In this document: positions 19,201 to 28,200 of the stretch, piece after piece
Layout: every line of letters begins with the position of its first letter
Numbering within the stretch: the first letter of the stretch is position 1
Origin: Haliotis cracherodii
Lineage: Eukaryota
DNA length: 64,000 nucleotides
Reading direction: 5' to 3'
Assembly (NCBI RefSeq): GCF_022045235.1
Contig: NW_027266273.1
Location: forward strand, 20,708,001 to 20,772,000
The notes under the pieces: generated by a model
The model's database searches: none
Told to the model about the DNA's origin: nothing
What the model saw: only the letters and a program-made list of their open reading frames with translations
Position numbers and translations under genes: made by a program

Positions 19201-22200
19201 GCGTTAAACCCAACTCACTCACTCACTAATAAGTTAATATGTAACTGTTGGTTAATAAGATCAATAGTATGCCTTTCAAAGTTTGCAACAGTCATTACAC
19301 TGCTTCAGTGACTAAGTCGTGATATAATCTTGTTGTAGGGATGTGTCTGAGGTGACCGGCGCCCCGGAGATGCTGGGTGGCCGGGTGAAAACACTCCACC
19401 CAGCTGTACATGGAGGTAGGTACAAGAGACCTCAAGATCCGGTCTAGAATGTCTTCAGCAACCCATGCTTGCTGTACGAGGCGACTATGCTTGTCCTAAT
19501 AGGCGACTGACGGTGGTCAGGCTTGCTGACTTTATTAATGCACGTCATAGTATCCCAATTGCGTAGATAGATGCTCATGATATCAATCACGAGATTGTCT
19601 GGTCCGTCATATAGCAGTAATATTGCAGAGTGTGGCATTAAACAACAAACAAACAAATATAGGGACAATATCATGAATATGTCCCCAGTGATTTGTGCTA
19701 GTTTCCCCCTGCGATTGTCGAGCACCCCATGTTAGTTTGAACTTGGGATTATGGAGCACCACATGTTAGCTTCACCTGGGTATTGTGGAGCACCCCATGT
19801 TGTTTTAACTGGGTATTGTGGAGCACCCTATGTTTGTTTCACCTGGGTATTATGGAGCACCCCATGTTGTTTCACCTGGGTATTGTGGAGCACCCCATGT
19901 TGTTTCACCTGGGTATTGTGGAGCACCCCATGTTGTTTCACCTGGGTATTGTGGAGCACCCTATGTTTGTGTCACCTGGGTATTATGGAGCACCCCATGT
20001 TGTTTCACCTGGGTATTGTGGAGCACCCCATGTTGTTTCACCTGGGTATTGTGGAGCACCCCATGTTGTTTCACCTGGGTATTGTGGAGCACCCTATGTT
20101 TGTTTCACCTGGGTATTGTGGAGCACCCCATGTTGTTTCACCTGGGTATTGTGGAGCACCCTATGTTTGTTTCACCTGGGTATTATGGAGCACCCTATGT
20201 TTGTTTCACCTGGGTATTGTGGATCACCCCATGTTGTTTCACCTGGGTATTGTGGAGCACCCCATGTTGTTTCACCTTGGGATTGTGGAGCACCCCATGT
20301 TTGTTTCACCTGGGGATTGTGGAGCACCTAACCATTGTGCCTTGGTACCTGATGTTTGTCTTGAATGATATTTCCAGACTGCCAAGATATTGCGGATCTG
20401 TTCAGGCTCAAGCTCCACAAAGCAATATTATAACTTACATTATGCTTCTACTTATTTGAAATTGAGTATTTATTTCTTCTGTTCGAATGTGAGTGTTGTT
20501 GTTTGATGTTGTAGGAATCCTGGCCCGGTGTACTGAGTCTGATCAGGCTGACCTTGACAAGCAGGGCTTCAAAATGATCAGGTACCTACTACCTAGGCCC
20601 ACTGTGTGCACAATCAGACACCCATAGTCCACCCCCTATCCACCCCCGTCCACCATCAGGCACCCCTGTCCATCCCTATCCACCCCCTATCCACCATCAG
20701 GCACCCACGTCCACCCGCTGTCCACCATCAGGCACTCCCGTGCTTTCTGTAAGAGGCGACTAACGGGAACAGGTGGTCTGACTCAGTGACTTGGTTGATG
20801 CATGTCATCGTATCCCAATTCAGTGGGTCGATGCTCATGATGTCAAAATTCGGATTATTTACAGACCACCATCATATACCGGTAGCTGGAATATTGCTGA
20901 GTGAGGCATTAAACAACAACAAAAAACAACTAAACAAACAAATAGTTTGGAATCCTTTGTCAATCTTTGCTCCTTCATCATCATTCCCCCACTCAATCTT
21001 ATATTTTGACCTCCCCCCTCCCCTCCTTCCTATCTTGTCAACCCCTCTATTCACTCACCATTCCCTCTGTCCTTTCTTCTTTCTTGTCACCTTCCCCTTG
21101 CTCTTCCCTCCATCCCATCTGCCACCGCCTCACATCACCATATCACCCCTTGCTCTTCCCTCCATCCCATCTTGTCACTGCCTCACATCACCGTATCACC
21201 CCTTGCTCTTCCTTCCATCCCATCTTGTCACTGCCTCACATCACCGTATCACCCCTTGCTCTTCCCTCCATCCTATCTTGTCACCGCCTCACATCACCGT
21301 ATCACCCCTTGCTCTTCCCTCAATCCCATCTTGTCACCGCCTCACATCACCGTATCACCCCTTGCTCTTCCCTCAATCCCATCTTGTCACCGCTTCACAT
21401 CACCATATCACCCCTTGCTCTTCCCTCCATCCCATCTTGTCACTGCCTCACATCACCGTATCACCCCTTGCTCTTCCCTCCATCCTATCTTGTCACCGCC
21501 TCACATCACCGTATCACCCCTTGCTCTTCCCTCAATCCCATCTTGTCACCGCTTCACATCACCATATCACCCCTTGCTATTCCTTCCATCCCATCTTGCC
21601 ACCGCCTCACATCACCATATCACCCCTTGCTATTCCTTCCATCCCATCTTGTCACCGCCTCACATCACCATATCACCCCTTGCTATTCCTTCCATCCCAT
21701 CTTGCCACCGCCTCACATCACCATATCACCCCTTGCTATTCCTTCCATCCCATCTTGTCACCGCCTCACATCACCATATCACCCCTTGCTATTCCTTCCA
21801 TCCCATCTTGCCACCGCCTCACATCACCGTATCACCCCTTGCTCTTCCCTCCATCCTATCTTGTCACCGCCTCACATCACCGTATCACCCCTTGCTCTTC
21901 CCTCAATCCCATCTTGTCACCGCTTCACATCACCATATCAGCCCTTGCTCTTCCCTCCATCCCATCTTGTCACTGCCTCACATCACCGTATCACCCCTTG
22001 CTCTTCCCTCCATCCTATCTTGTCACCGCCTCACATCACCGTATCACCCCTTGCTCTTCCCTCCATCCCATCTTGCCACCGCTTCACATCACCATATCAC
22101 CCCTTGCTCTTCCCTCCATCCCATCTTGCCACCGCCTCACATCACCGTATCACCCCTTGTTATTCCTTCCATCCCATCTTGTCACCGCCTCACATCACCG

Positions 22201-25200: not shown

Positions 25201-28200
25201 ATCTTGGACCTGTACATGCATATCTTGGACCTATACATGCATATTTTGCACCTGTACATGCATATTTTGGACCTATACATGCATATCTTGGACCTGTACA
25301 TGCATATCTTGGACCTGTACATGCATATCTTGGACCTATACATGCATATCTTGGACCTGTACATGCATATCTTGGACCTGTACATGCATATCTTGGACCT
25401 GTACCTGTACATGCATATCTTGGACCTGTACATGCATATCTTGGACCTGTACATGCATATCTTGGACCTGTACATGCATATCTTGGACCTGTACATGCAT
25501 ATCTTGGACCTGTACATGCATATCTTGCACCTATACATGCATATCTTGGACCTATACATGCATATCTTGGACCTGTACATGCATATCTTGGACCTGTACA
25601 TGCATAGTTTGTACAGTGTTGACAAGTTATTTCAGGCCCAAAAAGAAACTTGCCTGTGCATGACCCACCACTATAAACTTGACTCAAGTACTCTTATGAG
25701 ATTTCTATACTCAAATTATTTTTGTAATTGACACATTTTCACAATATGAAAAACAAAAAGCACAAAATCTTTAACTGTTTATGATTTTCTGAGAAGTATC
25801 TGAGCAGTGATGAGTCTTTGTCTCGTTCGTATGAACTGTCCATGTTGGTTAGTTCTGATTTAGCAATAACAACCTGAGCTCAGTATCGACGATGTTTTTT
25901 CCAAGATCAAGTTCCATAATTGTTGCAAATATTACTTACTGGTGCACAAGTGGTCTAGGGGGCATGGGTGGCCCAGTCTTCTAAGGCACCGCGATTCGCT
26001 GTGCAGGGTTGCATCCCTTGGGCATGCCAGAAACCTATGATTGTGGGTTCGAATCCCAGTTCGCCCCGATTATGTTTCTAGGTTTGTCAGCACCATACCC
26101 GTGCTCGTGGGTTTCACCAAAGTGGTAAACGTCTGAGACCTGCATCACTTCGGGCTTTCCTCCCACATTAAGCTGACACGCCTTGATATAACTGGAATAC
26201 TTTTAAAAGTGGCGTTAAACCCAACTCATTCACTCACTCACTCACTCACAAGTGGTCTGTCTATACGAGGGGCAAGCATGGGTTGCTGAACACCCATTCT
26301 ACCCCGGAATCTTCACGGGTCTAATTAGGAGATAACGCTGCTGTGTTTTCAAGGCAGAGATTAGGTACCTGTACATTCAACCATGTTAAAGTGAGTCTGG
26401 AGCCGTACACACTGAACACTGACCATCATTAAGTGCTACAGATGGCATTCTGCCTTGCATGTTACTACCACCTACACTGTTTGCCTACCGCACGCTGTTT
26501 ATTTCATTAAAATAATACCCCAAAAATATTATAATTTTTTTTTTATGACAAACAAAATGTCATTACTATGTAGATTATATAACAATTATGTCAGTCTAGC
26601 ATTTGGATGCAATCGGAAAATTGCATATTTCTAACACAAGCTTTGTCAAAGAAAGAACCCTGCAAAAGGTCTTGAATGTTGATATTTTCAAATCTTAACT
26701 GACTGCCTCTGTTGTTTTGTGATAAACCATCCGCCTGGAGAGCGACTGCGTCATTCCAAAGACGTTTAAAAAATGGTACTTGTTGTTACCCTGCCTGGTG
26801 ATGGTCATTAAGTGGCTTAAACAAGGACTGGTCGGCTCGGAGTTAGTATACTGTGTCTAAATGGAGTATTCATGTTAAACTGTGCCATGGTATCTCAGTG
26901 GGCTAGCACTATCAATCGGCATCAGTTTGGACAAGTACAAGCAGCCACACACATGTGCATGCACGTCGCTATATAAGTTCAATAATTTTGGACGCCATGT
27001 TAAACCCCATTTCACCTCACCTCAAAACTTAACTGCCCATATAAAGAAATGAACATTTCATAGATGACCCCCAGACAGGCTTTGTCATTAACAGCACTCA
27101 AGGAATGGGGGGAAACTTGTTCTATATTTAAGCGTTTGCCTGCGAAAAGTGTTGAAAGAATTATCGGAGCAATGATGAGTCTTTGTCTCGTTCGTATGAA
27201 CTGCCCTTGTTGGTTAGTTCTGATTTAAGCAAAACAACCTGAGCTCTGACTGACATCATTAGGAGTAGACTATGTATGGGTCCTGACCGTCCATGTACAC
27301 AATATGTCTGTATGTCGTTCCAGAGTTGTGGCGTGTAACCTCTACCCCTTTGTGAAGACTGTAGCCAACCCCGACACCACTGTAGCCCAGGCCGTGGAAC
27401 AGATCGACATAGGTGGGTCTAATTGCACCAGAACACACCTTCTGCAGCTGCACATGCTTTCTGTAGATTCAATAGTAAACACGTTCGGTAGATTCCCAGG
27501 ACTGATTCCAACACGGCATCTTTCCGTTAACTGACTATATAAGTCCAGTTTCAACCCTTGCCAAACTAGGCTAGAATTCCAGAGTTACATTTTGGCTGGA
27601 ATAATGAGTCTATGCATAGTCCAATCAAAATTGTGTTCTGAAATCGACATCCAGTTAGTACACTGCAGTGCAGATTTCGGCTGATTACAGGATTTGCAAA
27701 GCATGTATACCGTCAACTTAGCGTCAACAGATATTTTTCAAATCTTTTCATGTTTTTAATCAAGGTTCTCACCTGGTTAGACGCATTTCTTAAAGTAAGA
27801 CCCATTTTAATACAAATAAATCTTGATTATCGATCAGATTGTCTTCACTGGGCGCCAGCATTATGTTTGAAGCAAATGCAAGTGATATGAGTTGTGGAAT
27901 CTGATTGGCCAGCAGGAAAGGCATAGTAGGGACATAACTCGTAATAGCCACTGGTGCCGCTACGATCGAGGCCAGAAATTTCAGCCTAGTTTGGAAAGAG
28001 TGAAAACTGGACTTTTTTCAGTCAGTTAACTCCCTTGTCCACACGGGTCCAGCGTGTTAAGCTTGTTACGTGCTTGATATCAGGTCATACCCTGAGTATA
28101 ATAGTGTTGTTACATGCTTGATTTCAGGTCATACCCTGAGTATAATAGTGTTGTTACATGCTTGGTGGTAGGTCATTGTACCCCGAGTATAATAGTGTTG

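What the first reader, a model, noticed from the sequence alone, without database searches (positions are those of the whole stretch)
20582..27323. Three snoRNA copies within one 6.7-kb intron, spaced by minisatellites
Seen: copies 1-3 all lie in ATIC intron 4. Copy 1 begins about 30 nt after the 53-bp array and copy 2 about 200 nt after the 21-bp array. Only copy 3 sits at the canonical ~80 nt from the acceptor. Established: vertebrate-type exonucleolytic release from a debranched lariat yields one snoRNA per intron, and two in one intron can yield sno-capped lncRNAs. Inference: this needs endonucleolytic cutting or unannotated non-coding exons, or it produces sno-lncRNAs (e.g. 23732-25883, carrying the 21-bp repeat between two snoRNP caps).
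Basis: partly seen in the sequence, partly recalled or inferred. Interest (0 to 1): 0.7.

Follow-up and report, generated by a model that had tools for sequence, protein, structure and literature searches.

The report
Stacked snoRNAs inside abalone introns
One intron of an abalone purine-synthesis gene holds three intact copies of a small RNA predicted to guide methylation of ribosomal RNA, and three other host genes in this genome stack such RNAs the same way, so the animal likely frees them by cutting the intron internally rather than by the one-per-intron trimming described for vertebrates.

Summary
Abalone ATIC intron 4 (20582-27323) carries three box C/D snoRNA copies with intact boxes, terminal stems and an 11-nt guide to 18S A1363. 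Cores are 83-93% alike while flanks are at chance level, which points to selection on each copy. Exon 4 joins exon 5 directly in 4 of 4 relatives' runs, with no other partner seen. The minisatellites look incidental: only one lies between copies, and 7 of 18 ATIC introns carry arrays. The main result is that the intron is not an oddity. In ATIC, RPL7A, RPL4 and EIF4A, 5 of 13 mapped C/D-bearing introns hold several snoRNAs (22 of 30 genes, up to six per intron, mixed families). All 3 genome matches to one guide sit in interior positions. Most likely the intron is processed as a polycistron (internal cut, then trimming); this is inferred, with no small-RNA data. Intronic clusters are known from plants, algae and fly H/ACA RNAs, but C/D RNAs are described as one per intron in vertebrates, fly and silkworm. 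The scan noted similar stacks in three other genomes. New variant of a known kind.

The parts
20582..27323 (+). ATIC intron 4, host of three snoRNA copies
   Evidence: GT..AG ends; exon join gives a protein identical to P0002; exon 4-5 junction in 4 of 4 runs
20515..20581 (+). ATIC exon 4
27324..27412 (+). ATIC exon 5
23733..23815 (+). Box C/D snoRNA copy 1 (C 23739, D ends 23809); terminal stem 5 of 6 pairs; 3514 nt from acceptor
25801..25883 (+). Box C/D snoRNA copy 2 (C 25807, D ends 25877); 6-bp stem; 1446 nt from acceptor
   Evidence: covered by contigs of organisms A and D
27165..27249 (+). Box C/D snoRNA copy 3 (C 27172, D ends 27242); 7-bp stem with one pair changed on both sides relative to copy 2; 81 nt from acceptor
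37782..37862 (+). Paralogue 4, alone in intron 12, 86 nt from acceptor, same 11-nt guide
38831..38912 (+). Paralogue 5, alone in intron 14, 506 nt from acceptor, one mismatch in the guide
21094..23697 (.). 53-bp minisatellite, 49 copies, upstream of all three snoRNAs; likely incidental
24698..25606 (.). 21-bp minisatellite, 43 copies, between copies 1 and 2; likely incidental
23929..24120 (.). Dispersed repeat with terminal hairpin behind copy 1
   Evidence: fold z -5.1 for 23800-24060; dozens of genomic copies
25957..26248 (+). SINE-like insertion behind copy 2, flanked by a 10-nt direct repeat (25947 and 26249)
   Evidence: similar elements elsewhere in the window

Best explanation
Intron 4 of abalone ATIC holds three intact box C/D snoRNA genes predicted to guide 2'-O-methylation of 18S rRNA A1363, and the spliced-out intron is likely processed as a polycistronic precursor in which each copy would bind its core proteins, the spacers would be cut internally and exonucleases would trim to the protected ends. 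Shown: the copies, their boxes and stems, the guide match, core-only conservation, direct exon 4-5 splicing, and the same stacking in RPL7A, RPL4 and EIF4A. Inferred: expression of copies 1 and 2, assembly far from the branch point, and the internal cut. The nuclease is unknown; any cut between two assembled snoRNPs would do, and snoRNA-capped intermediates would be expected on the way. The copies likely arose by local duplication, the spacers then filling with repeats as other introns of this gene do.
For: Core identity among copies 1-3 is 0.83-0.93 and flank identity 0.50-0.54, against 0.52 +/- 0.03 for 200 random intron pairs. All three keep an 11-nt perfect complement to the genome's own 18S directly before box D'. 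Exon 4 had one partner, exon 5, in 4 of 4 runs from four organisms. 5 of 13 mapped C/D-bearing introns in four hosts hold several snoRNAs, 22 of 30 genes: RPL4 six U18-like in one intron, RPL7A 2, 6 and 5, the last two mixing families (tally). EIF4A has ten SNORA21-like H/ACA copies in one intron. The U36-type guide for 18S A632 has 3 of 3 genome matches in interior cluster positions, so if that site is methylated an interior copy must act. No acceptor excess 72-106 nt behind 16 independent distal copies (p=0.38). Splicing-independent assembly and endonucleolytic release are described (PMC5519232, PMC10557570 passages).
Against: No small-RNA or raw-read data: neither expression of any copy nor a cut was observed. 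Contigs drop rare isoforms, so cannot exclude minor exons. Acceptor scores behind distal copies were raised in other windows (55-72 nt p=0.043; 106-140 p=0.012; 140-175 p=0.008; six windows, uncorrected). Core-only conservation can also come from gene conversion. I found no cleavage signal shared by the spacers, and their hairpins are little stronger than in other introns (lowest 80-nt window -37.3 and -29.3 kcal/mol against -10.1 to -33.0). Long external stems are not evident for copy 1 (flank duplex -9.0 kcal/mol against -11.9 to -14.0). In this intron copy 3 and in the gene copy 4 would suffice for the guide function. Copy 1 was not checked in relatives.
Confidence: 0.55

Rival explanations
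1. One snoRNA per lariat by chance: only some copies assemble in time on a given intron molecule, and exonucleases chew through the unprotected ones, so every copy is made from some molecules without any internal cut.
For: Explains selection on each copy and interior-only guides using only the standard pathway; no shared spacer signal was found.
Against: Extra copies would then add little yield, which makes retention of six per intron with diverged flanks hard to explain; molecules with two assembled copies would still need a cut.
Confidence: 0.17
2. Unannotated, decay-prone exons or recursive splice sites divide the intron so that each copy is released from its own lariat.
For: Candidate sites exist (acceptors 24244 and 25636, an 11-nt AG..GT stretch at 26354-26364); mild acceptor excess in some windows; a metagenome locus, L102, has three homologues with exon-like stretches between them (by eye).
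Against: Only exon 4-5 was seen in 4 of 4 runs; no excess at the canonical 72-106 nt; intron 4 has 3 acceptors and 0 donors above the median true score in 6.7 kb, no more than other introns per kb.
Confidence: 0.12
3. The end product is a stable sno-lncRNA (copy 1 to copy 2 or 3) whose spacer, with the 21-bp repeat, has its own job.
For: Two snoRNAs in one intron give sno-lncRNAs in mammals (PMC11028025 passages, PMC4234469 abstract); stable multi-snoRNA forms occur in Ostreococcus (PMC7671301 passages). Run X1 has contigs over spacer DNA at 25612-25838, 26470-26710 and 26887-27324.
Against: The X1 contig runs past copy 3 to the splice acceptor, unlike an RNA capped by copy 3, and may be pre-mRNA or DNA. 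Spacers are repeat-filled. Contigs of organisms A and D run 427 and 364 nt upstream of 25612 unbroken, which suggests (inference) that the 21-bp array is missing or short there. The array has 0 sense-strand TGCATG sites. Guides are kept intact, as expected for working snoRNAs.
Confidence: 0.1
4. Copies 1 and 2 are silent passengers kept alike by gene conversion; only terminal copies work.
For: Copy 1 has a stem mismatch; some stacks in RPL4, RPL7A and EIF4A are recent duplicates with flanks 0.85-1.00 alike.
Against: Differences between copies 1-3 spare the boxes and guide; interior-only U36-type guides; copy 2 is kept in organisms A and D.
Confidence: 0.06

Closest known systems
Human SNORD30 (guide for 18S Am1383 and 28S Am3804; PMC13507652 passage) and plant snoZ43 / snoU30
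   Same: Box C/D guide with the same core before D'; best Rfam look-alikes were snoZ43 (E 0.16) and snoU30 (E 7.6). That A1363 here equals human A1383 is recalled, not tested.
   Different: No match reaches a gathering score; hosted in ATIC, not SNHG1; no second rRNA guide found before box D.
Drosophila intronic H/ACA clusters (PMC3089462 passages; PMC11028025 Table S1, 24 of 24 fly rows seen were H/ACA)
   Same: Several paralogous snoRNAs in one intron of a coding host in an invertebrate.
   Different: Fly C/D RNAs and both silkworm classes are described as one per intron; here C/D RNAs are stacked, over kilobases and with mixed families.
C. elegans top-2 intronic cluster (three C/D rows in PMC11028025 Table S1)
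   Same: Three C/D snoRNAs annotated in one intron of a protein-coding gene.
   Different: A few cases among mostly single entries in the rows I saw; in the abalone sample 22 of 30 C/D genes are clustered.
Plant and algal intronic polycistronic snoRNA clusters (PMC7671301 passages; the rice paper was not held and is known only from citations)
   Same: Intronic clusters of mixed families processed from one precursor; stable intermediates in Ostreococcus.
   Different: Processing is shown there and only inferred here; compact spacing there is recalled, against 1.3-2 kb repeat-filled spacers here.
Mammalian sno-lncRNAs (PWS, SLERT, LNC-SNO49AB; PMC11028025 passages, PMC4234469 abstract)
   Same: Two or more snoRNAs in one intron.
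   Different: Often made by exon skipping; here the arrangement is genomic and constitutive, and no such RNA is shown.

Membership tests
Box C/D methylation-guide snoRNA | Box C (RUGAUGA) and box D (CUGA) about 70 nt apart | tested here: met
   3 of 3 copies (and both paralogues)
Box C/D methylation-guide snoRNA | Terminal stem | tested here: met
   5 of 6, 6 and 7 pairs
Box C/D methylation-guide snoRNA | 10 or more nt complementary to rRNA directly before D or D' | tested here: met
   11 nt to own 18S, predicted target A1363
Box C/D methylation-guide snoRNA | Stable small RNA bound to core proteins; target methylated | not testable with these tools
   Only contigs were available
Rfam SNORD30 / snoU30 / snoZ43 | Score above the family's gathering threshold | tested here: not met
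   Best 23.4 bits against 43 (snoZ43); 18.6 against 45 (snoU30); SNORD30 not listed at E up to 10. Works like SNORD30 by target; membership not shown.
Intronic snoRNA cluster | Two or more snoRNA genes in one intron of a host transcript | tested here: met
Intronic polycistronic snoRNA cluster | Individual RNAs released by endonucleolytic cleavage | not testable with these tools
   Indirect only: interior-only guides, no exons seen
sno-lncRNA | Stable non-polyadenylated RNA ending at two snoRNAs | tested here: inconclusive
   Spacer contigs in run X1, one running past copy 3 to the acceptor; contigs cannot show ends

The most novel reading that the evidence does not exclude
Abalones, and perhaps molluscs more widely, have dropped the one-per-intron rule for box C/D snoRNAs and run a dedicated intron-cutting pathway, possibly through their several EndoU-family nucleases, that frees most C/D guides from mixed polycistronic introns as plants do; some guides exist only in interior positions and so depend on it.
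Probability: 0.3. Interest if true: 0.8.

Novelty: new variant of a known kind. Interest (0 to 1): 0.5.

Why it matters
The view that animal box C/D snoRNAs come one per intron, about 70-80 nt from the acceptor, rests on vertebrates and insects. If most C/D guides in a mollusc sit in stacks, some only in interior positions, animals have a way to free them that has not been characterised. Abalone RPL7A, RPL4 and ATIC introns would make it directly testable. For ATIC intron 4 alone the stake is modest, because copies 3 and 4 could supply the guide.

Tried and rejected
Rfam at gathering scores: 0 hits in the window. No run listed was on record as RNA; this says nothing on expression. In X1 the unique parts of intron 5, the end of intron 3 and the start of intron 4 had no contig cover while the 3' part of intron 4 had; X5 and X9 had only scraps there. 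Lack of cover is no evidence, so I do not use the contrast. The hairpin behind copy 1 as a dedicated cleavage signal: rejected, it is a dispersed repeat. Minisatellites as processing elements: rejected; arrays of 100 bp or more are in 7 of 18 introns and fill 6705 of 24280 intron bases; 9% of non-array intron bases lie within 200 nt behind an array. An AG at +81 behind copy 2 is made by the SINE-like insertion. A first acceptor test (21 copies, 60-110 nt, p=0.016) fell to p=0.08 after recent duplicates were collapsed. Metagenome homologues: 122 stretches, many chance; 0 of loci L007-L127 matched ATIC protein, so host conservation beyond abalones is untested. Left out of the tally: the two U15 copies (host exons unresolved), one U14 upstream of the first mapped RPL7A exon, weak hits (U14 E 0.83 and 0.88; U15 E 0.054), and the C12 U36 hit (no guide). 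EIF4A exons were placed by recalled DEAD-box motifs, not by a homologue alignment. EndoU: 25 exon-level matches in about nine gene-like groups by my count; presence only, no link shown. No paper on mollusc snoRNA organisation appeared in searches; term searches in PMC11014333, PMC6984369 and PMC3511168 gave nothing relevant. The original rice and Drosophila cluster papers were not held.
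Full report
Host gene. An exon of the window found a 590-aa protein named Haliotis cracherodii ATIC (P0002). Nineteen GT-AG exons between 16246 and 42298 translate to exactly that protein. Intron 4 runs 20582-27323. None of 59 full-length homologues has an indel near the exon 4/5 junction, so no coding exon is missing. Contigs of four runs from four coded organisms each show one contig over exon 4, continuing into the start of exon 5 (4 of 4). Exon 5 joins exon 6 in 3 of 3 RNA-like runs. 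Contigs drop rare isoforms, so this shows the main splice and does not exclude minor ones.

The RNAs. Three copies lie in intron 4 (box C to box D: 23739-23809, 25807-25877, 27172-27242), 3514, 1446 and 81 nt from the acceptor. Two more lie singly in introns 12 and 14, 86 and 506 nt from theirs. These five are the only matches of a box C + guide + D' pattern in the genome; the reversed control has none. Copies 1-3 have canonical C and D boxes, terminal stems of 5 of 6, 6 and 7 pairs and an 11-nt perfect complement to the genome's own 18S directly before D', predicting methylation of A1363. No Rfam family reaches its threshold; the nearest are snoZ43 and snoU30. Human SNORD30 guides 18S Am1383 (PMC13507652, passages); that this is the same site is my recall. 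Look-alikes with the same guide occur in metagenome contigs.

Are the distal copies alive? Their cores are 0.83-0.93 alike and their flanks 0.50-0.54, the level of random intron pairs (0.52 +/- 0.03, n=200). The differences spare boxes and guide. Copies 2 and 3 are covered by contigs from organisms A and D; copy 1 was not examined there. This points to selection on each copy, with gene conversion as a caveat.

Minisatellites. But only the 21-bp array is between copies, arrays of 100 bp or more sit in 7 of 18 ATIC introns, and the spacers also hold SINE-like and hairpin repeats found elsewhere. Contigs of two relatives run 364-427 nt upstream of 25612 unbroken, which suggests the 21-bp array is not conserved; that is inference.

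The wider pattern. I searched the genome with four Rfam families chosen beforehand, U14, U18, U15 and U36, and mapped hosts with RPL7A and RPL4 homologues and, for EIF4A, recalled motifs. RPL4 has six U18-like genes between codons 141 and 142, the last 450 nt from the acceptor. RPL7A has introns with 2, 6 and 5 C/D genes, the last two mixing families. EIF4A has ten SNORA21-like H/ACA genes in one intron. With ATIC, 5 of 13 mapped C/D-bearing introns hold more than one gene, 22 of 30 genes (tally entered by me; rows left out are listed under Tried and rejected). Some stacks are recent duplicates; many pairs in one intron have flanks at or near chance level. The U36-type guide for 18S A632 has 3 of 3 exact-pattern matches in interior positions; diverged copies could escape that pattern. 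The sample is small and limited to four hosts, and hidden exons were tested by RNA only for ATIC.

Mechanism. The standard route trims a debranched intron from both ends, and two snoRNAs in one intron can leave a sno-lncRNA (PMC11028025, passages and section 3 part 1). Assembly can be splicing-independent, and endonucleolytic release is described, with XendoU in Xenopus (PMC5519232 and PMC10557570, passages). I tested the hidden-acceptor idea: true acceptors lie 73-102 nt behind terminal copies, and 16 independent distal copies show no excess at 72-106 nt (p=0.38), though other windows were mildly raised. I therefore favour polycistronic processing with an internal cut (0.55) over chance single assembly (0.17), hidden exons (0.12), a functional sno-lncRNA (0.10) and silent copies (0.06). 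The cut, the enzyme and expression are all inferred. The genome has about nine EndoU-like loci, which is a lead only. Run X1 has contigs over spacer DNA, one reaching the acceptor; this fits pre-mRNA, excised intron or DNA and does not separate the models.

Comparison. Intronic clusters are known for fly H/ACA RNAs, whereas fly C/D and silkworm snoRNAs are described as one per intron (PMC3089462 and PMC1821038, passages). Table S1 of PMC11028025 (first 300 of 389 pages held; I saw part 1 and search rows) lists three C/D genes in one C. elegans top-2 intron and some vertebrate C/D clusters. Plants and algae have intronic polycistrons (PMC7671301, passages). Sno-lncRNAs: PMC4234469, abstract. 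I found no paper on mollusc snoRNA organisation; subscription papers and unseen supplements could hold one. After my own tests I found that this scan had noted similar stacks in three other genomes; these are unchecked notes and not support.

Verdict. A real feature and a new variant of a known kind. The single intron is ordinary for this genome; the interest lies in the genome-wide stacking of C/D guides and the open question of how interior copies are freed. Interest 0.5.

Noticed in passing
G000:C5:20347600-20358100 (L142, L143), minus strand: RPL7A introns hold 2, 6 and 5 box C/D snoRNAs; U36-type 18S guides occur only in interior positions.
   Followed up: yes
G000:C1:6113100-6117500 (L149), minus strand: Six U18-like genes in one RPL4 intron, none at the canonical distance from the acceptor.
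   Followed up: yes
G000:C67:46872750-46880930 (L145, L157): Ten SNORA21-like H/ACA copies in one 8.2-kb EIF4A intron.
   Followed up: partly
G000:C12:20392200-20400300 (L152, L158): Pairs of U15-like and other C/D snoRNAs with no coding exon recognised nearby; possibly a non-coding host gene.
   Followed up: partly
window 38831-38912: Paralogue 5 has a guide mismatch and lies 506 nt from the acceptor; it may be decaying or retargeted. Strong acceptor-like sites follow at 39037 and 39094.
   Followed up: partly
window 32467-32755 and 40472-40559: Repeats built from the 3' ends of ATIC exons 8 and 16 with their donors ('mirage'-type repeats).
   Followed up: no
window 23725: A strong acceptor-like site 14 nt before box C of copy 1.
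   Followed up: no
L102: Three homologues of the same guide within 1.1 kb in a metagenome contig, with exon-like stretches between them.
   Followed up: partly
G000 contigs C1, C34, C67: About nine EndoU-family (PF09412) gene-like loci, some in tandem.
   Followed up: no
window 44794-49086 and 62773-64000: Large 56-bp and 40-bp minisatellites downstream of ATIC.
   Followed up: no
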